This document shows, in pieces, positions 13,391 to 19,966 of a stretch of DNA of 20,000 bases. Position numbers and translations under genes: made by a program. Location: IMG/VR virus record IMGVR_UViG_3300008117_000066. One strand, written 5' to 3'. This DNA is from an uncultured virus (IMG/VR IMGVR_UViG_3300008117_000066) (lineage: Duplodnaviria > Heunggongvirae > Uroviricota > Caudoviricetes). Position 1 is the first letter of the stretch; each line of letters opens with the position of its first letter. Below the pieces are notes generated by a model. That model had not been told where the DNA came from. It was given only the letters and a program-made list of their open reading frames with translations, and did not search any database.

Positions 13391-13418
13391 GCCATTAGCG
13401 GATAGGGAGACTTATGGC
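13391..13418 (+). promoter_or_regulatory. Hairpin leader covering the RBS and start codon of the 393-aa collagen gene
   Basis: GCCAT-t-AG (13391-13398) pairs with CT-t-ATGGC (13411-13418); loop CGGATAGGGAGA. It begins right after the upstream TAA. Confidence 0.5.
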
Positions 13419-14595
13419 AACAAATAATAAAGACTTCGTAGTAAAAAACGGTATCGTAGTAACAGAAGACGCAAATATTCAAGGCGTACTGAAGTCTAAC
13501 GGAACAACCATTGTTGATGCTACTGGTGCTTGGGTTGGTAGTACAGCTGGTCTACAAGGAACAACAGGCACCCAGGGGACAACAGGCACTGCTACACAAG
13601 GAACAACAGGATCACAAGGACCACTTGGCATACAGGGTGCTAATGGTGCACAGGGTACTGCTGGAGCAGCAGCTGCACAAGGCGCAACAGGGTCACAGGG
13701 TGCTACTGGTACACAGGGAACCATAGGTACAACAGGTTCAACAGGAACAACGGGTGCCCAGGGCACTGCTGGAGCAGCAGCTGCTCAAGGCGCAACAGGA
13801 TCACAGGGTGCTACTGGTACACAAGGTACAACGGGTGCTAATGGTACAACAGGTACTCAAGGCACGGCTGGTTCTAATGGCACACAAGGTACTGCTGGTT
13901 CTAATGGATCGCAGGGCACACAAGGAACAACAGGTGCTAATGGTACAACAGGTGCTCAGGGCACTGCTGGTTCTAATGGTACTCAAGGTACTGCTGGCAC
14001 TAATGGAACACAAGGCACAACAGGCGCACAAGGTACTGTCGGTGTAACAGGATCGCAAGGTGCTACAGGCACTCAAGGAACGACTGGTACTTCTGGTTCT
14101 AATGGATCACAAGGTACAACAGGTACTCAAGGCACAACTGGTACAACTGGTGCACAAGGCACAGCTGGTACTAATGGATCACAGGGTGTACAAGGTCGCC
14201 AGGGTGCTACTGGTTCACAAGGTACAGCTGGCACTAATGGTACTAATGGAACACAAGGCGCTACAGGTGCACAAGGTACGACAGGTACACAAGGTCCGAC
14301 AGTAGTTCCATTAACAACTAGCACGGCACTAACTACAGCTGATGTCGGTAAATGTACATCTGTTTCGACTAACGTGACTATTCCAAACTCGACATTTGCA
14401 GCTGGTGATATTGTCAGCATTTATAACAATAGCGCATCTTCTATTACGATCAGCGGAACTCTATCTTCCTCTGGCACATTAAGACTAGCTGGAACAACTA
14501 CAACTGGAACCAGAACCCTGGCTGCTTATGGTATGGCTACTGTGTGGTTCAGAACGAGCACTGAAGGCATCATAAGCGGAGCAGGGCTAAGCTAA
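13414..14595 (+). CDS. Collagen-like tail fibre (393 aa)
   Basis: N-terminal KDFVVKNG motif, about 250 aa of Gly-X-Y repeat (13549-14301), C-terminal ~97-aa beta domain ending TLAAYGMATVWF..IISGAGLS. Confidence 0.8.
   Translation: MATNNKDFVVKNGIVVTEDANIQGVLKSNGTTIVDATGAWVGSTAGLQGTTGTQGTTGTATQGTTGSQGPLGIQGANGAQGTAGAAAAQGATGSQGATGTQGTIGTTGSTGTTGAQGTAGAAAAQGATGSQGATGTQGTTGANGTTGTQGTAGSNGTQGTAGSNGSQGTQGTTGANGTTGAQGTAGSNGTQGTAGTNGTQGTTGAQGTVGVTGSQGATGTQGTTGTSGSNGSQGTTGTQGTTGTTGAQGTAGTNGSQGVQGRQGATGSQGTAGTNGTNGTQGATGAQGTTGTQGPTVVPLTTSTALTTADVGKCTSVSTNVTIPNSTFAAGDIVSIYNNSASSITISGTLSSSGTLRLAGTTTTGTRTLAAYGMATVWFRTSTEGIISGAGLS
13549..14301 (+). repeat. Collagen Gly-X-Y coding repeat (9/18-nt periodicity)
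   Basis: Alternating G-x-Q / G-x-T triplets; includes a 65-nt duplication (13651-13715 and 13759-13823, three synonymous differences). Confidence 0.95.
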
Positions 14596-15041
14596 TGTCA
14601 GCACATCAAATGCTATTGAGTACCCCACAATTTGTAGTTAGTATTGGTGATATAGCAAACGCATATGCATCCACATCATCTTCTGATCAAAATATCAAAG
14701 GGTGGACTTTTAAGCCAGATGGTAATACTGTTCTTGCTGTAGCAGCAACCGCAACCCCAACGCTACCAGATTGGGGATCTCCGCTATCAACCGATATTGG
14801 TAGTGGATATTGGGTTAGAGTTTCTTACAATGTGGTTGATAACACCCCATCCATAACACAGACGGGTACATTTGATACATGGCTTCAGATGAATGTTGAT
14901 AGAACTTTTGGATTTTCTAAACCATCAACAGGAAATCCAGGAACAGCATCTACAGCATACACCATAAATATTTCCACAGATTCATCTGGAACAAATATCG
15001 TTGATACCGCAACGTGGACCGTAACCATGGGCTATTTCTAA
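14595..15041 (+). CDS. Putative fibre-tip adhesin / receptor-binding protein (148 aa)
   Basis: TAATG-coupled to the collagen fibre; begins MSAHQMLL; Trp/Tyr-rich beta protein (DWGSP..IGSGYWVRV..TWLQM..ISTDSSGTNIV). Function inferred from position and composition. Confidence 0.5.
   Translation: MSAHQMLLSTPQFVVSIGDIANAYASTSSSDQNIKGWTFKPDGNTVLAVAATATPTLPDWGSPLSTDIGSGYWVRVSYNVVDNTPSITQTGTFDTWLQMNVDRTFGFSKPSTGNPGTASTAYTINISTDSSGTNIVDTATWTVTMGYF
14963..14970 (+). promoter_or_regulatory. Putative late promoter CATAAATA
   Basis: 83 nt upstream of the 44-aa ORF ATG at 15054. Confidence 0.45.
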
Positions 15042-15195: not shown

Positions 15196-15528
15196 ATGGC
15201 AACCAAAGCAAATCTAGTAATCGACCAGGGAACAGACTACTCAACAGTTGTTAATGTAACGACTGATGATGGTGACGCAGTTGATTTGACTGGCTATACA
15301 GGTCGCGGTCAGATCCGCAAACACTACACCTCATCAAATTCGGTGTCGTTCAATGTGTCCGTGTCAAATGCTACTGGTGGTGAAGTAAGTCTTGCTTTAA
15401 CAGCCAATCAGACTTCAAGAATAGCTTCTGGTAGATACGTTTATGACGTAGAGGTTGTAAGCTCCGCTAACATAGTATCCAGAATAGTGGAAGGTATTGT
15501 CACCCTGACACCAGAAGTCACCAGATGA
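15196..15528 (+). CDS. Virion adaptor protein (110 aa), BppU N-terminal-like beta-sandwich
   Basis: NLVIDQGTDYS..DLTGYTGRGQIRKHY..GEVSLALTANQT..GRYVYDVEV..RIVEGIVTLTPEVTR is a common small structural family in T4-like aquatic phages; fold assignment is from recall. Confidence 0.7.
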   Translation: MATKANLVIDQGTDYSTVVNVTTDDGDAVDLTGYTGRGQIRKHYTSSNSVSFNVSVSNATGGEVSLALTANQTSRIASGRYVYDVEVVSSANIVSRIVEGIVTLTPEVTR

Positions 15529-15782
15529 AAGCGATAGTTAGACGCAACCAGATAATAACGGTATCGACAGCCCCATCAGGCAGTCTGGTCCAGGATGCGC
15601 CTATTACCCTAAAAAACAGTATTGCAGATGGAACCGTAGCCACAATTGAGTCTATTGGAGATGTGGATGAAGTTAACGTCACAAATGGCGCAACACTGGT
15701 CTATAATTCTGAAATAGATAAATATGAGATAAAGCTACTATCATCAGACAGCATAAGCGGTTTAGATGGCGGAACATTCTAA
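15525..15782 (+). CDS. Small virion connector protein (85 aa) ending LDGGTF
   Basis: ATGA overlap with the upstream gene; contains IGDVD..NGATLVYNS..KYE repeat unit; C-terminal LDGGTF. Confidence 0.7.
   Translation: MKAIVRRNQIITVSTAPSGSLVQDAPITLKNSIADGTVATIESIGDVDEVNVTNGATLVYNSEIDKYEIKLLSSDSISGLDGGTF
15717..15724 (+). promoter_or_regulatory. Putative late promoter GATAAATA
   Basis: 76 nt upstream of the ATG at 15801. Confidence 0.45.
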
Positions 15783-15800
15783 TAATAATAAAGGTAATAT

Positions 15801-16859
15801 ATGGCTAACTCAACAATTCAAGTAAAAAGAAGTACAACTAATGCTGCGCCTACTGGGTTGGCTAATGGTGAATTAGCCTATACCGCTAATGGTGAGGTTC
15901 TTTTCATAGGCTCACCAAATGGTAATGGCTTATCGATAGCTATCGGTGGTAGACGATTCCCTGGTGTCCTGACTGCTAACCAGGTATTGGTCGCAAACGC
16001 AACGAGTGCTATTGACAAAGTAATTGTCGCTAACTTAGTCCCAACTCAAATTTACGCCAACGGTGGTTTTGGTACAGCGGGTCAAGTTCTACATTCTGGA
16101 GATTCTGGTAATGTTTACTGGGCAAATACAACTGCTGATATCACTTCAGTAGTTGCTGGTGACGGTTTAACTGGCGGTGGTACTGAGGGTGCTGTAACAC
16201 TTAACGCTGTTGCTGGTAACGGTATCTCCGTAACGGCTGATGCCATAGCTGTTTTTGCCAACACATCAAGTGGTCTAGTTGCCAACGTAACAGGTCTTCA
16301 TGTTAAGACTGGTGTTGGTGTAAGTCTAGACGGCAACGGAAACTTGGCTATCGGTCAGGCTGTCGCAACCACATCCAACGTCACCTTTAATGACATTACC
16401 GCATCTGGTAACCTGGTTGTTAACGGTACGCTAGTCACCCTTGACGTAGAAACCCTACAAGTCGAAGATCCGCTGATCGCCCTGGCTCGTCTGAATACTT
16501 CTGCGGATACCGTAGACATTGGTCTGTATGGCACATACAACGATGGTTCGACACGCTACAGCGGTTTGTTCAGAGACGCTTCAAACAGCGATATCTGGAC
16601 ATTCTTCGCCAACACAACCGTTGTACCAACAACAACCGTTGATACAGGTGGTACTGGCTACACATTAGCTGAAATCCTGGCTGGTTCTGGTCGTTTTAAC
16701 ACAGCCTTGACCCTACCATTCTTGGCTAACAACGGTGTTCTGATTGGTCAAAATACAAGCAGTATAGCTGCGGTATCATCTTCAACAGAGGGTCATGTCC
16801 TACAGATCAATTCATCTGGCATTCCAGCATTCGGTGTGCTTGATGGTGGTACGTTCTAA
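15801..16859 (+). CDS. Tail fibre segment (352 aa) with Mtd_N-like N-terminus, ending LDGGTF
   Basis: IQVKRSTTNAAPTGLANGELAY..LFIG N-terminal domain; fibre motifs DITSVVAGDGLTGGG, GNLVVNGT..LQVEDPLI..VDIG and EGHVLQINSSGIP; C-terminal LDGGTF. Confidence 0.75.
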   Translation: MANSTIQVKRSTTNAAPTGLANGELAYTANGEVLFIGSPNGNGLSIAIGGRRFPGVLTANQVLVANATSAIDKVIVANLVPTQIYANGGFGTAGQVLHSGDSGNVYWANTTADITSVVAGDGLTGGGTEGAVTLNAVAGNGISVTADAIAVFANTSSGLVANVTGLHVKTGVGVSLDGNGNLAIGQAVATTSNVTFNDITASGNLVVNGTLVTLDVETLQVEDPLIALARLNTSADTVDIGLYGTYNDGSTRYSGLFRDASNSDIWTFFANTTVVPTTTVDTGGTGYTLAEILAGSGRFNTALTLPFLANNGVLIGQNTSSIAAVSSSTEGHVLQINSSGIPAFGVLDGGTF

Positions 16860-16863
16860 AGGC

Positions 16864-16891
16864 TTGACAAATCTGAAAAACCTGGTATAAT
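16864..16891 (+). promoter_or_regulatory. Sigma70-type (early) promoter: TTGACA-16 nt-TATAAT with extended -10 TG
   Basis: TTGACA 16864-16869, TGG 16883-16885, TATAAT 16886-16891; intergenic, 31 nt before the ATG at 16923. Confidence 0.85.
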
Positions 16892-16922
16892 TGGGATGTC
16901 TTCCTTCATATAGGATTGGTTT

Positions 16923-17108
16923 ATGGATATTGAGTTTGTTAATGAGTTTCTGAGTGTTCAGAGAAAGACTGTAGAGGAATTGGTATCAAAGACATTAGTC
17001 TTAGAAACCCAAAAAAACCTGACAGAGAGTAAACTACTAAAGGCTTCTACCAGAATAGAAGAGTTGGAAAAACAACTTGCTAAGGCTACAAAGAAGGGGA
17101 CTGCATAA
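16923..17108 (+). CDS. Small coiled-coil protein (61 aa)
   Basis: AGGA RBS at 16912-16915; all-helical heptad pattern (VEELVSKTLVLETQKNLTESKLLKASTRIEELEKQL); own promoter and terminator. Confidence 0.8.
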   Translation: MDIEFVNEFLSVQRKTVEELVSKTLVLETQKNLTESKLLKASTRIEELEKQLAKATKKGTA

Positions 17109-17125
17109 GTTCCCTTTTCTTTTTT
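17092..17125 (+). terminator. Rho-independent terminator overlapping the end of the 61-aa gene
   Basis: Stem AGAAGGGGACT (17092-17102) / AGTTCCCTTTT (17108-17118) with two G-U pairs, loop GCATA, followed by CTTTTTT. Confidence 0.8.
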
Positions 17126-17133
17126 GCTAAATA
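17126..17133 (+). promoter_or_regulatory. Late promoter GCTAAATA immediately after the terminator
   Basis: Intergenic, abuts the T-tract, 55 nt before the ATG at 17189. Confidence 0.7.
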
Positions 17134-17140
17134 CTATCAA

Positions 17141-17186
17141 TGGTTACATAACCAGGCTTTTTGATAGATATCAGTAAATTGGAGCC
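17141..17186 (+). promoter_or_regulatory. Structured 5' leader (twin hairpins, RBS-sequestering stem) of the 925-aa fibre gene
   Basis: TGGTT-ACAT-AACCA (17141-17154); TGAT-AGAT-ATCA (17162-17173) nested within GGCTTT (17155-17160) / GGAGCC (17181-17186), which contains the GGAG RBS. Confidence 0.55.
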
Positions 17187-17188
17187 AT

Positions 17189-19966
17189 ATGGCAAATACA
17201 AGATACCAGGCGAAGAGAACTTCGGTCTCAGGAAGAACGCCCAATACAACAGATCCAGCAAACACTCAGTACATAGCTGCTGGTGAATTTGCCATAAATC
17301 TACCAGACAAAAAAGCTTTTACTTCAAACGGTTCTGTATTTTTTGAAGTTGGTGCTAATTTATCCAATCTTAGTATTTCTGGTTCAGAAGTTATTAATTC
17401 TTCTGGTACATGGGTTGGCAGTCCTACTGGATTGCAAGGACCACAAGGAACCACAGGATCTCAAGGCACAACTGGTGCTCAAGGCACTAATGGAACACAA
17501 GGCACGACAGGATCACAGGGTGCTACGGGTACTACAGGCACACAAGGTACTACAGGATCACAGGGCACTGTAGGTACACAGGGCACTGTAGGTACACAGG
17601 GCACTTCAGGCACTAATGGGACACAAGGCACGACAGGTGCGCAAGGAACATCGGGAACTAACGGAACCCAGGGAACAACAGGTTCCCAAGGTGCTACGGG
17701 TGTACAGGGAACCACTGGCGCTCAAGGTGCGACAGGATCTCAAGGTGCTACAGGCACACAAGGCACCGTAGGTACACAAGGTACAACAGGTGCACAAGGC
17801 GCAACTGGTACGCAAGGCGTACAAGGCGTTATTGGATCACAGGGAACCACTGGCGCTCAAGGTGCGACAGGATCTCAAGGTGCTACAGGCGCTCAGGGTA
17901 CAAACGGTACGCAAGGTACGACAGGATCGCAAGGTGCAACGGGTGCTCAGGGCACTACTGGTGCACAAGGCACCGTAGGCACACAGGGCACAACAGGCAC
18001 TCAGGGCACAACTGGTGCTCAGGGTACAAATGGTACACAAGGTACAACAGGTTCTCAGGGCACTACTGGTGCTCAAGGTATAACAGGATCACAAGGTGCG
18101 ACAGGTACTCAAGGTATTACTGGTCGTGATGGTAATTTTGGTGGTGCCACCTTCGATTTCACTTTCGATACAACAACTACCGCTGGCGATCCTGGTACTG
18201 GTAAACTAAGATTTAATAATGCTAACGTAGCATTAAGTACTGCAATGTACATCGATACAACAAATGATGCAGCTACTGATATACGAAATTTCTTAATAAC
18301 AATTGACGATAGCACAAGCACAATCAAAGGACATTTCCGTGTAAGTAATAAATTTGATGCCAATGATTTTGCTTTATTCACAATATCTGCACTGACAGAT
18401 AACACAACTTACTTTACTGTAACCAGTGCATATGTTAGTGGTAGTGCGACCACATTCAGTAATAGTGAAGACATTCTTATTACATTTGCTAGAACTGGTG
18501 ATAAGGGCGACACAGGATCACAGGGCGCAACTGGTGCCCAGGGTGCAAATGGTACTCAAGGTACTAACGGAACACAGGGCACTGTAGGTACACAGGGCAC
18601 TACAGGCACACAGGGCACCACGGGTACACAAGGTGCTACAGGTACACAAGGTACAACAGGCACTCAAGGTACAACAGGCACTCAAGGTACAACAGGTACG
18701 CAAGGTACCACGGGTACACAAGGCACAACTGGTAATACAGGTTCGCAAGGTGCTACTGGTGCTCAAGGTGTTCAGGGTGTTTTAGGATCTCAAGGTACAA
18801 CAGGAGCACAAGGCGCTACTGGTGCACAGGGAACTAATGGCACGACAGGATCGCAAGGCGCAACGGGTGCTCAAGGTGCAACGGGTGCTCAAGGTACTAC
18901 TGGTGCCCAGGGTGCGACAGGCACACAGGGTGTGACAGGATCTCAGGGTGCTACTGGTGCTCAGGGTACTACAGGAACCACGGGTACACAGGGTACGACA
19001 GGCGCACAAGGGACCACGGGATCGCAAGGCACAACGGGTGCACAGGGTGCAACGGGTGCACAAGGAACACAAGGTACAACTGGTGCTCAAGGTGCAACAG
19101 GAGCACAGGGTGTTCAAGGTATAACTGGTCCAGTATCTGGATCTAACACGCATGTTGTATTCAATGACTCAGGTGTGGCTAATGGTTCAGCATCCTTTAC
19201 CTTTATTAAATCAAACAATACTATAACTGCTGCGAATTTAATTGTTAATACGGCATTTACTCAGCTGGCTGGTAATGCAAACTTTGACAGCGGTGTTCTG
19301 TTTGTTGATGGAACTAATAATAGAGTTGGTGTTGGTACGACATCCCCTGCGACATTATTGAATTTATCTGGCTCAACAGCAGCTGAACAATTAAGAGTTA
19401 CTACTTCTTATGATGCAAGTAGAAATGCTCGTGGTGGTATTACATGGGCAGACGGAACTAACATAACTGGTAGAATTATGACCGAGTACGATGGTACTAT
19501 GGTTAGTATGAGATTTACTAGTTTGTATAATAGTGGGTATAACTCTAATGATTTAATGATTATTCGAGGAAATGGTAATGTCGGTATTGGTACAACAACT
19601 CCAGGATATAAACTTGAAGTCAACGGATCCTTCGCAGCTACAACTAAGAGCTTCGTAATTAATCACCCAACAAAACCTGACATGAAACTCCGCTACGGTT
19701 CTTTGGAAGGACCAGAGAACGGAGTGTATGTTCGTGGTCGTGCTAAAGGCGATACCATCCAGCTTCCTGATTACTGGACTGGCTTGGTTGACGAGTTCTC
19801 TATCACAGTAAATCTGACACCCATCGGTAGTCATCAGAAGCTTTACGTCAAGAGTATCGATAAAAACGTTGTAACTATCGGTGGTGGATTATTTGATCAA
19901 ATGGAATACTTCTATACTGTGTTCGCAGAACGCAAAGATGTTGATAAGCTGATTGTGGAGATTTGA
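17189..19966 (+). CDS. Long collagen-like tail fibre (925 aa)
   Basis: Mtd_N-like start ([26 protein letters not shown]), collagen tract 1 (17429-18139), ~120-aa globular domain, collagen tract 2 (18497-19135), [16 protein letters not shown] beta repeats, and C-terminal [25 protein letters not shown] domain. Confidence 0.85.
17429..18139 (+). repeat. Collagen Gly-X-Y coding repeat, tract 1 of the 925-aa fibre
   Basis: About 237 aa of G-x-Q/G-x-T; exact 52-nt duplication (17704-17755 and 17839-17890) and an 18-nt tandem at 17561-17605. Confidence 0.95.
18497..19135 (+). repeat. Collagen Gly-X-Y coding repeat, tract 2 of the 925-aa fibre
   Basis: About 213 aa of G-x-Q/G-x-T; 18-nt tandem CAAGGTACAACAGGCACT around 18647-18696. 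Confidence 0.95.

What the first reader, a model, noticed from the sequence alone, without database searches (positions are those of the whole stretch)
15196..17350. Head-to-tail connector code: LDGGTF C-termini followed by QxKR[ST] N-termini suggest a daisy-chained modular fibre
Seen: two consecutive, otherwise dissimilar proteins (85 aa and 352 aa) end in the identical hexapeptide LDGGTF-stop with different codons (TTAGATGGCGGAACATTC vs CTTGATGGTGGTACGTTC), so the peptide rather than the DNA is conserved. The next structural gene in each case starts with a related domain (MANSTIQVKRSTT..P..L..GELAY in the 352-aa protein; [20 protein letters not shown] in the 925-aa protein). Known: this N-terminus resembles the Mtd_N-like fibre attachment domain. 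Inference: DGGTF is a docking strand that completes the N-terminal domain of the next subunit. That would give a chain of 110-aa adaptor > 85-aa connector > 352-aa extender (socket and plug) > 925-aa terminal fibre (socket only), with gene order matching assembly order and segments added or swapped like couplings.
Basis: partly seen in the sequence, partly recalled or inferred. Interest (0 to 1): 0.8.

Follow-up and report, generated by a model that had tools for sequence, protein, structure and literature searches.

The report
Plug-and-socket joints between phage fibre proteins
Two neighbouring tail-fibre proteins of a T4-like marine phage end in the same six-residue tail, which most likely clips as an extra strand onto the small starting domain of the next fibre protein, the kind of joint that links gp36 to gp37 in phage T4, so fibre assembly order may be partly readable from gene sequence.

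Summary
Confirmed. The 85-aa (15525-15782) and 352-aa (15801-16859) proteins both end in LDGGTF-stop with 4 of 6 codons different; the 352-aa and 925-aa proteins start with related ~50-residue domains. The window is the baseplate/fibre block of a T4-like marine myophage. All 120 listed homologues of each protein keep a terminal [LIVM]D[GAC]GxF. A DNA scan found at least 123 LDGGTF-TAA sites in viral contigs against 5 for a scrambled order; 36 of 77 such ORFs have a socket domain starting within 100 nt (control ORFs: 23 of 1325). A 3+3 complex model lays residues 77-85 of the 85-aa protein as a parallel strand on residues 4-11 of the 352-aa protein (score 0.75, best control 0.00: supports, does not show, binding). 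Natural single-chain proteins join the connector domain directly to the fibre shaft, without plug and socket. The socket is of the T4 gp37 N-terminal type and T4 gp36 ends in DFGYY: this is the gp36-gp37 kind of joint, used twice, begun by an LtfC-like anchor (fold match to DT57C/T5). The 352-to-925 and 110-to-85 links are inferred only, and exceptions exist. The peptide rule was not in the papers searched; this scan noted it before on at least eight other genomes.

The parts
15196..15528 (+). 110-aa LtfC-like beta-sandwich protein, proposed anchor at the start of the chain; its TGA overlaps the ATG of the next gene (ATGA)
   Evidence: phrog_1084 E 5.2e-31, phrog_3304 'L-shaped tail fiber protein assembly' E 3.3e-25; Pfam LtfC E 0.018 and BppU_N E 0.0048, both under cut-off; AF2 model with 37-row alignment pLDDT 91.8; Foldseek top hits DT57C baseplate 8hqz_Q/T (E 1.3e-07, TMq 0.77-0.79) and T5 tail tip 7qg9_J/L
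15525..15782 (+). 85-aa connector protein: conserved core (PITLKN...GATLVYNS..DKYE.K), variable linker, terminal plug
   Evidence: 702 representatives at E<=0.001 in the 50%-clustered library
15762..15779 (+). plug 1: LDGGTF, followed by TAA
   Evidence: residues 77-85 form the modelled interface
15801..16859 (+). 352-aa fibre segment with socket at the N-terminus and plug at the C-terminus
15801..15950 (+). socket 1 (about residues 1-50, MANSTIQVKRS...GELAY...LFIG)
   Evidence: HMM i-E 1.7e-20; residues 1-12, 15, 17-18, 26, 39 touch the partner in the model
16839..16856 (+). plug 2: LDGGTF, followed by TAA
16864..16891 (+). sigma-70 consensus promoter-like site (TTGACA-16-TATAAT, 12 of 12, TG before the second hexamer)
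16923..17108 (+). 61-aa coiled-coil-like ORF between the two fibre genes; a small ORF with a similar start holds this place in related loci
   Evidence: no PHROG at E<=0.01
17092..17128 (+). intrinsic-terminator-like hairpin and T run
17189..19966 (+). 925-aa collagen-like terminal fibre, socket only
   Evidence: Pfam Collagen E 1.2e-67; ends ...KLIVEI, no plug
17189..17356 (+). socket 2 (residues 1-56), T4 gp37 N-terminal type
   Evidence: tblastn to the N-terminus of the gp37 homologue of Yersinia phage fHe-Yen9-01, E 6e-4, 40% over residues 4-55; HMM i-E 6.9e-08

Best explanation
The four genes encode one segmented tail fibre that is held together by non-covalent peptide-in-domain joints. 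The last residues of a proximal segment (consensus [LIV]-D-G-G-x-F-COOH, on a flexible linker) lie as an extra, parallel beta-strand against the first strand (I-Q-x-K-R-S) of the N-terminal cap domain of the next, trimeric segment, each plug sitting between the N-terminal strands of two socket subunits. Because the strands run parallel, the polarity of the fibre carries on through the joint. Proposed order: LtfC-like 110-aa anchor, then 85-aa connector, then 352-aa extender (socket and plug), then 925-aa collagen-like distal fibre (socket only). The joint is of the same kind as the one where gp36 binds the N-terminal region of gp37 in the T4 long tail fibre. Shown: sequence conservation, gene linkage, fusions. 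Modelled: the 85-to-352 interface. Inferred: that the invariant Lys-Arg of the socket clamps the Asp and the free carboxylate of the plug (which would explain why the motif always stands at the very end); the 110-to-85 link (by analogy with LtfC, whose sheets are extended by strands of the fibre's N-terminus); the 352-to-925 link (by analogy with joint 1 and with T4).
For: Conservation of the peptide alone: 120 of 120 and 120 of 120 listed homologues keep the end; in the 85-aa family the stretch between the core and the plug varies in length and sequence while D81, G83 and F85 are invariant over 54 aligned sequences. Of 133 short (<=150 aa) representatives from the exhaustive profile search, 121 end in x[GAC]Gx[FY] and the other 12 in D[FLESND]G-x-[FY] variants. 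Enrichment: at least 123 against 5 for the scrambled pattern. Linkage: 36 of 77 plug ORFs have a socket start within 100 nt, 12 within 101-1000 nt, 1 beyond; controls 23 of 1325 within 100 nt; of 95 distinct sockets in those loci 76 have an ORF with a plug-like end stopping within 150 nt upstream (loci were chosen for plugs, so this is biased). In four complete phage genomes the socket profile finds 6 sockets and no others, each preceded in the chain by a gene ending VNGGSF, IDGGTF (P-HM1), INAGAF, IDGGSF (Mosig), QDFGYY (T4), IDFGTY (fHe-Yen9-01); 4 directly, 2 across one small ORF (the profile held these sequences). Model: score 0.75 (runs 0.75, 0.70, 0.82), best of 3 controls 0.00; the mark was reached by 116 of 157 solved complexes and 2 of 215 mismatched pairs (counts hold only roughly: own alignments, 3+3 copies); runs agree in at least 79% of contacts; partner pLDDT at least 66. 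The verdict is that the model supports binding and does not show it. Contacts keep j = i+73 or 74 (4-77, 5-78, 6-80, 7-81, 9-82, 10-84, 11-84), i.e. parallel strands. No like complex is solved by sequence: T4 gp36 has no PDB relative, the 352-aa protein none relevant, the socket profile without Mtd none at E<=1. Fusions: in P0316, P0353, P0373 and P0383 residues ~10-80 align to the 85-aa protein and the next residues to the 352-aa protein from residue ~53-83 on, so plug and socket are both replaced by a peptide bond; P0278 keeps a degenerate pair in one chain (...SIDGSITPLKIKFTDQAMPLGIANGELAYS..., socket HMM i-E 7.7e-07). Covariation over 137 distinct adjacent pairs: plug position -5 D/E goes with R/K at the socket column of R10 in 75 of 79, N/Q with R/K 17, W/Y/F 16, other 2, and other residues with non-basic, non-aromatic ones in 18 of 23; 0 of 10000 shuffles reach the observed mutual information; 12 loci carry two different pair types. 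[quoted passage not shown] Anchor; LtfC mechanism from PMC10713586 (passages read); 62 of 67 distinct LtfC-like genes in the loci are followed by a small plug ORF and then a socket.
Against: No experiment. 28 of 77 plug ORFs have no socket in the sequence held downstream (at most 2.5 kb; 4 of them have under 1 kb): 14 are one ~540-aa fibre family followed by a coiled-coil ORF and non-fibre genes, and 5 contigs of that family (9.7-36 kb, 5-17% complete) hold only the fibre's own socket; 5 are 82-87-aa proteins ending FDGGTF or LDGGTF among replication-type genes. In the window the 352-aa and 925-aa genes are separated by a 61-aa ORF with its own promoter-like and terminator-like sites, and that joint was not modelled. 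Both plugs are LDGGTF and both sockets carry K-R, so the sequence gives no reason why the 352-aa protein should not bind itself head to tail or why the 85-aa protein should not bind the 925-aa protein. In a related group of phages the coiled-coil protein that sits between fibre and next socket itself ends in [SAK]GG[ST]F right before that socket, so plugs outnumber sockets there and the fibre's own plug may have another partner. The covariation is not corrected for relatedness: the W/Y/F and Q/S types come from one group of related loci. The 85-aa family shows no likeness to gp36 beyond the last residues (hhalign probability 0.5%). The word-index search for longer forms found none.
Confidence: 0.75

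Rival explanations
1. The hexapeptide is only the natural end of a conserved C-terminal fold (a cap of the trimer or its own last strand) and binds nothing else; plugs and sockets lie side by side because fibre genes are syntenic.
For: In the 352-aa family some 25 residues before the end are conserved too (...TEGHVLQ..SG.P.F..LDGGTF). All linkage counts come from related gene clusters. 28 of 77 plug ORFs have no socket nearby.
Against: In the 85-aa family only the last six residues are kept behind a variable linker. The motif stands at the very end in 240 of 240 listed homologues. The model puts it on the partner, controls 0.00. Fusions drop plug and socket together. Plug and socket residues covary.
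Confidence: 0.1
2. The plug does dock on sockets, but the assembly is not the linear chain in gene order: the 352-aa protein polymerises head to tail, or the 85-aa connector carries either fibre, giving branched or alternative fibres.
For: Both plugs are identical and both sockets carry K-R. The 352-aa protein has both parts. Where pair types differ within one phage, the fibre's own plug type matches its own socket type (N with K-[WYF]), not that of the next socket. Branched fibres are known in DT57C (PMC10713586, passages read).
Against: T4 uses the homologous joint in a linear fibre (PMC3004832). The model also shows contacts outside the hexapeptide (partner 54-55, 73-75 with socket 17-18, 26, 39), which could give specificity. 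Fusions join the connector to the shaft of the 352-type protein.
Confidence: 0.12
3. The C-terminal peptide is a tag read by an assembly factor (for instance the small coiled-coil protein encoded next to it, in the manner of the T4 fibre chaperones) or by the LtfC-like protein, not by the next fibre protein.
For: A small coiled-coil ORF follows the socket-and-plug fibre gene in the window, P-HM1, Mosig, L190 and many contigs. T4 fibres need chaperones (PMC3004832).
Against: The 85-aa protein's plug is followed directly by the socket gene, with no coiled-coil ORF between. Model, fusions and covariation point to the socket. No test of this rival was run.
Confidence: 0.03

Closest known systems
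Phage T4 long tail fibre, distal half: gp36 bound to the N-terminal region of gp37
   Same: The 925-aa socket matches the N-terminus of a gp37 homologue and T4 gp37 aligns with both window sockets (MATLKQIQFKRSK...GELAIN). gp36 ends in QDFGYY (T4) or IDFGTY (fHe-Yen9-01), and DFGTF/DFGEY ends occur in the 85-aa family. Gene order equals order in the fibre; trimer joins trimer (PMC3004832, passages).
   Different: The joint is used twice in a row here, with a segment that carries both parts. The 85-aa protein is not a gp36 homologue. There are no gp34 or gp35 counterparts; the chain starts with an LtfC-like protein. I found no account of the terminal peptide as the binding element in the passages read.
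LtfC collar protein and LtfA fibre of T5-like phage DT57C (T5 counterpart in PDB 7qg9)
   Same: The 110-aa protein has the LtfC fold and matches the PHROG named for it. In DT57C the fibre is fixed by donating beta-strands to the sheets of LtfC (PMC10713586), the same principle of strand addition as modelled for the plug.
   Different: There the fibre's N-terminus gives the strands and the acceptor is a dodecameric ring on a siphophage tail tip; here a myophage, oligomer and site unknown, and the 110-to-85 contact is untested.
Mtd of Bordetella phage BPP-1, N-terminal domain (Pfam Mtd_N, PF18454; PDB 1YU0)
   Same: Mtd aligns with the sockets by eye. 5 of 19 sockets hit Mtd_N (best E 3.9e-05). 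True Mtd_N heads (E 1e-12 to 1e-14) lie downstream in clusters of relatives of the 352-aa protein. The gene before mtd, bbp9, ends in ADLGGIA.
   Different: The window's sockets do not hit Mtd_N. A profile without Mtd does not find Mtd in the PDB at E<=1; hhalign probability 3%. The bbp9 end departs from the motif. The Mtd crystal entries listed name Mtd only.
Donor-strand complementation of chaperone-usher pili; adaptor domains of branched tailspike sets (G7C, CBA120). Both recalled, no call
   Same: Works like: a strand of one subunit completes or extends the sheet of the next, or N-terminal adaptor modules let receptor-binding proteins be stacked and swapped.
   Different: No homology claimed or tested. 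In pili the donated strand is N-terminal and fills a groove of an incomplete Ig fold.

Membership tests
T4-type gp36-gp37 fibre joint | Distal partner starts with a gp37-type N-terminal domain | tested here: met
   tblastn of 925-aa residues 1-69 hits the gp37 homologue of fHe-Yen9-01 at its N-terminus, E 6e-4; T4 gp37 aligns with both sockets
T4-type gp36-gp37 fibre joint | Proximal partner ends in D-x-G-x-aromatic at its very C-terminus and is encoded just upstream | tested here: met
   LDGGTF twice in the window; QDFGYY and IDFGTY in gp36. That this peptide is what binds in T4 is my inference, not taken from a paper
T4-type gp36-gp37 fibre joint | Proximal partner is a homologue of gp36 | tested here: not met
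   hhalign of the 85-aa family against T4 gp36: probability 0.5%
T4-type gp36-gp37 fibre joint | The two proteins bind each other | not testable with these tools
   Model only: score 0.75, best control 0.00, mark reached by 116 of 157 solved and 2 of 215 mismatched pairs; it supports binding and does not show it
Pfam Mtd_N (PF18454) | Match to the family model | tested here: not met
   No hit for the 352-aa or 925-aa protein at E<=0.1 nor for the 55-residue socket at E<=10; 5 of 19 related sockets hit, best E 3.9e-05
Pfam Mtd_N (PF18454) | Profile of the window's socket family recognises Mtd | tested here: not met
   No PDB hit at E<=1 without Mtd in the profile; hhalign probability 3%; the hit is by construction
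LtfC / T5 collar protein | Sequence match | tested here: inconclusive
   phrog_3304 E 3.3e-25, but Pfam LtfC 16 bits against a cut-off of 27; phmmer to 8hqz_Q E 0.5
LtfC / T5 collar protein | Same fold | tested here: met
   Model pLDDT 91.8; 8hqz_Q/T E 1.3e-07 to 1.7e-07, TMq 0.77-0.79; 7qg9_J/L E 3e-07 to 4e-07
LtfC / T5 collar protein | Forms a ring that takes up strands of the fibre's N-terminus | not tested
   The one complex job went to the plug-socket pair

The most novel reading that the evidence does not exclude
The terminal peptide and the cap domain form a widespread, partly orthogonal coupling code of tailed phages: the residue at plug position -5 and the residue after the conserved basic residue of the socket (D with R, N with W/Y/F, S/A/K with Q/S/N) decide who joins whom, so that several different joints can coexist in one virion, the order of fibre segments can be read from a genome, segments with both parts can be inserted or stacked, and fibres could be re-wired by swapping six residues.
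Probability: 0.3. Interest if true: 0.85.

Novelty: new variant of a known kind. Interest (0 to 1): 0.68.

Why it matters
Multi-protein fibres joined end to end are known from T4, but what makes the joint has not been spelled out in the papers I could search ('DGGTF'; gp36/gp37; 'strand complementation' with 'tail fiber'; 'major tropism determinant' with attachment terms; subscription journals are mostly not covered). A six-residue C-terminal tag paired with a ~50-residue N-terminal cap would give annotators a rule for telling which unnamed fibre genes of uncultured phages belong to one fibre and in which order. It would explain how receptor-binding segments are exchanged as cassettes. It would also offer a small, portable connector for building chimeric fibres in laboratory phage-host pairs. 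The 85-aa connector family alone has 702 representatives in the 50%-clustered library.

Tried and rejected
Megablast of the region against isolated phages: no match. tblastn of the whole 352-aa protein: one partial hit. No whole genome is held; the nearest record G001 (46 kb) ends inside the 925-aa gene and holds the same 2 sockets and 2 plugs, so what follows the 925-aa gene is unknown. A strict regular expression for sockets missed many and was replaced by an iterated HMM. Single-sequence AF2 of the 110-aa protein gave pLDDT 61 and a meaningless Foldseek list; repeated with an alignment. Paper search 'Mtd_N' matched mtDNA and was useless. A search for cryo-EM work on cyanophage fibres listed none on a T4-like cyanomyophage among the 15 of 95 shown (listing only). 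T4 late-promoter motif TATAAATA with 1 mismatch: 23 matches against 20.3 expected, nothing. Rejected: a DNA repeat or recombination scar as the source of the shared hexapeptide (4 of 6 codons differ); readthrough or frameshift joining of the 85-aa and 352-aa frames (18 nt with three in-frame stop codons, TAA TAA TAA).

Full report
WHAT IS THERE. The window is the baseplate and fibre block of a T4-like myophage of the marine cyanophage/pelagiphage kind. ORFs upstream match baseplate wedge PHROGs (phrog_17744 E 3.4e-168, phrog_438 E 3.2e-85) and DUF4815. The nearest isolates by protein are Pelagibacter phage Mosig and Prochlorococcus phages P-HM1, P-HM2 and MED4-213. On the + strand lie:
- a 110-aa ORF (15196-15528);
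- an 85-aa ORF (15525-15782, its ATG overlapping the previous TGA);
- after 18 nt, a 352-aa ORF (15801-16859);
- a 61-aa ORF (16923-17108);
- a 925-aa collagen-like ORF (17189-19966).

Both the 85-aa and the 352-aa protein end in LDGGTF-TAA, and four of the six codons differ. The 352-aa and 925-aa proteins begin with related domains. An HMM of such N-termini finds just these two in the window. For the second pair a 61-aa ORF intervenes.

IS IT MORE THAN CHANCE?
- All 120 listed homologues of the 352-aa protein start M..IQIKRS...GELA and end in [LIV]DGG[TVSL]F, although their middles differ in length from 352 to 611 aa.
- All 120 listed homologues of the 85-aa protein end in [LIM]D[GAC]G[TSLE]F.
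- In an alignment of 54 of them, D81, G83 and F85 are invariant. The stretch between the conserved core and the plug varies in length and sequence, as expected of a tether that carries a terminal tag.
The scrambled LGDGTF-TAA gave 5.

LINKAGE WITH SOCKETS. In the 80 loci fetched around the pattern matches I called all stop-to-stop frames and searched them with an iterated socket HMM. Results for the 77 distinct ORFs ending in [LF]DGGTF:
- 36 have a socket start within 100 nt downstream on the same strand, 12 within 101-1000 nt, and 1 beyond.
- 28 have none in the sequence held (at most 2.5 kb; 4 of these have under 1 kb).
- Among 1325 control ORFs of 60 aa or more without a plug-like end, 23 have a socket start within 100 nt.
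- Conversely, 76 of 95 distinct sockets have an ORF with a plug-like end stopping within 150 nt upstream. This set was chosen for plugs, so that number is biased.

The plug-bearing proteins are very diverse. They include high-G+C contigs and proteins without a socket of their own.

In four complete genomes the socket profile finds six sockets and no others: two each in P-HM1 and Mosig, and gp37 in T4 and in fHe-Yen9-01. Each is preceded in the gene chain by a protein ending VNGGSF, IDGGTF, INAGAF, IDGGSF, QDFGYY or IDFGTY. P-HM1 and Mosig show the same order as the window: LtfC-like gene, ~75-85-aa plug protein, socket-and-plug fibre, small coiled-coil ORF, socket protein.

THE MODEL. Three copies of residues 1-110 of the 352-aa protein (alignment of 39 rows) were folded with three copies of the 85-aa protein (54 rows).
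- Scores were 0.75, 0.70 and 0.82 (median 0.75). The best of 3 controls scored 0.00.
- The mark was reached by 116 of 157 solved complexes and 2 of 215 mismatched pairs in the tool's calibration. That calibration holds only roughly here (own alignments, several copies).
- The runs agree in at least 79% of contacts, and the partner's pLDDT is at least 66. The verdict is that the model supports binding and does not show it.
- The confident interface is partner residues 54-55, 73-75 and 77-85 against socket residues 1-12, 15, 17-18, 26 and 39.
- The closest pairs keep a constant offset (4-77, 5-78, 6-80, 7-81, 9-82, 10-84, 11-84), so the strands are parallel. Residue 82 also touches residues 4-6 of a second socket copy.
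- K9 and R10 lie next to G82-F85. That they clamp D81 and the terminal carboxylate is my inference.
- The pass is unlikely to come from memory of a solved like complex. T4 gp36 has no PDB relative, and the socket profile without Mtd finds nothing at E<=1.

FUSIONS. The exhaustive profile search with the 85-aa family found 702 representatives at E<=0.001. Of the 148 newly returned proteins among the 150 listed, 133 have at most 150 residues. Of those, 121 end in x[GAC]Gx[FY] and the other 12 in D[FLESND]G-x-[FY]. Among the 15 longer ones:
- P0316, P0353, P0373 and P0383 align with the 85-aa protein over their first ~75-80 residues. They then continue straight into sequence that aligns with the 352-aa protein from about residue 53-83 onward. 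Plug and socket are both absent and a peptide bond takes their place.
- P0278 keeps a worn pair within one chain (SIDGSI, three residues, LKIKFTDQAMPLGIANGELAYS). The terminal Phe and the Arg are the residues that have changed.
- These proteins still end in a plug of their own.
This is Rosetta-stone evidence that the connector sits on the N-terminal side of the shaft of the 352-type protein.

COVARIATION. Counts over 137 distinct adjacent pairs:
- D or E at plug position -5 goes with R or K at the socket column of R10 in 75 of 79 pairs.
- N or Q goes with R/K in 17, W/Y/F in 16 and other residues in 2.
- Other plug residues go with non-basic, non-aromatic socket residues in 18 of 23.
- No shuffle of 10000 reaches the observed mutual information, and this column pair has the highest value of those compared.
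- Twelve loci carry two different pair types in one phage.
The sequences are related and the unusual types come from one group of loci, so this is a lead, not proof.

WHAT IT IS LIKE. The 925-aa socket hits the N-terminus of the gp37 homologue of a T4-like Yersinia phage. T4 gp37 starts MATLKQIQFKRSK...GELAIN, and gp36 ends QDFGYY. The T4 review states that trimeric gp36 binds the N-terminal region of gp37 (PMC3004832, passages). A 2026 preprint on T4 models (gp36)3-(gp37)3 only at low resolution (passages). The 85-aa protein is not a gp36 homologue.

The label Mtd_N is only loosely right. The window's sockets miss the Pfam model, while 5 of 19 relatives hit it. True Mtd_N heads occur further down the clusters of relatives. 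In BPP-1 the fibre gene before mtd ends in ADLGGIA.

The 110-aa protein has the fold of LtfC of DT57C and of its T5 counterpart. LtfC fixes the lateral fibre by taking up strands of the fibre's N-terminus (PMC10713586, passages). In 62 of 67 distinct LtfC-like genes of my loci, a small plug ORF and then a socket follow.

WHAT SPEAKS AGAINST, AND WHAT IS OPEN.
- One fibre family (14 of the 28 ORFs without a nearby socket) carries a plug but has no second socket on contigs of 9.7-36 kb. These contigs are only 5-17% complete.
- Five small proteins ending in FDGGTF or LDGGTF lie among replication-type genes, with no socket nearby.
- In a group of related phages the coiled-coil protein between fibre and next socket itself ends in [SAK]GG[ST]F directly before that socket. 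There plugs outnumber sockets. The window's 61-aa ORF ends in KKGTA instead.
- Both plugs of the window are identical, so what sets the order, and what prevents self-joining of the 352-aa protein, is unknown.
- The 110-to-85 and 352-to-925 links were not modelled.

EARLIER NOTES OF THIS SCAN. After I had formed this reading, a look-up showed that first readers and follow-up agents had described the same plug-and-socket idea on at least eight other genomes, most naming the T4 gp36-gp37 joint. These are not independent evidence. Those summaries do not mention the strand-level model, the joint-bypassing fusions, the covariation or the LtfC fold match reported here.

VERDICT. It is a variant of a known kind of assembly (the T4 long tail fibre) whose binding element, a terminal hexapeptide, I did not find described in the papers searched.

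Noticed in passing
window 16864-17128: The 61-aa coiled-coil-like ORF (16923-17108) is bracketed by a perfect sigma-70 consensus (TTGACA-16-TATAAT with TG, 16864-16891) and a terminator-like hairpin (17092-17128). Small ORFs with a similar start hold the same place in P-HM1, Mosig, L190 and many contigs. In one group of phages they are 160-190 aa long and end in [SAK]GG[ST]F, in others in ..DDF or ..NEF, here in KKGTA. Possible chaperone, placeholder for the socket, or branch; unresolved.
   Followed up: partly
loci L070, L075, L094, L097, L121: A family of 82-87-aa proteins ending in ...[IV]DVKFDGGTF or ...VKMNLDGGTF lies among replication-type genes with no socket within 2.5 kb: a plug-like end in a non-structural setting.
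   Followed up: no
locus L182 10838-18115 (Prochlorococcus phage P-HM1): The 2426-aa protein that carries the second socket (MATRIKLKRSTVAATVPTTSNLVDGEIALN) is annotated in the record as gp7 baseplate wedge subunit. If that were right, the plug of the 560-aa fibre would dock on a baseplate protein and the polarity of the chain would need rethinking.
   Followed up: no
protein P0278 (991 aa), residues about 170-225: A natural single chain with tandem connector-like repeats, then a degenerate plug (SIDGSI) three residues before a degenerate socket (LKIKFTDQAMPLGIANGELAYS); the terminal Phe and the Arg of the usual pair are replaced.
   Followed up: partly
locus L181 4599-6125 (Bordetella phage BPP-1, - strand): bbp9, the putative fibre gene just before mtd, ends in ...LADLGGIA: D, one extra residue, GG, two more residues, then the end. 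Possibly a distant form of the plug.
   Followed up: partly
window 13414-14595 and 17189-19966: Long collagen-like G-x-y arrays (GTQ, GAQ, GSQ) in the 393-aa and 925-aa proteins (Pfam Collagen E 1.6e-36 and 1.2e-67). The many antisense and off-frame ORFs listed there are by-products of the repeats.
   Followed up: no
window 14595-15041: The 148-aa ORF before the LtfC-like gene has no family match and ends in ...TVTMGYF (G at -3, F at the end). It is not followed by a socket and was not counted as a plug.
   Followed up: no
loci L017, L030, L041: Longer chains in related phages: LtfC-like, ~83-aa plug protein, ~540-610-aa fibre (socket IQLK[WY]S, plug NGGxF), coiled-coil protein ending GG[ST]F, socket protein (IAIRQS, IELRQS or IQLKNS). 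In L017 and L030 that protein ends in D-Y-G-T-L at or one residue before its end; in L041 it ends differently. Last comes a protein with a true Mtd_N head.
   Followed up: partly
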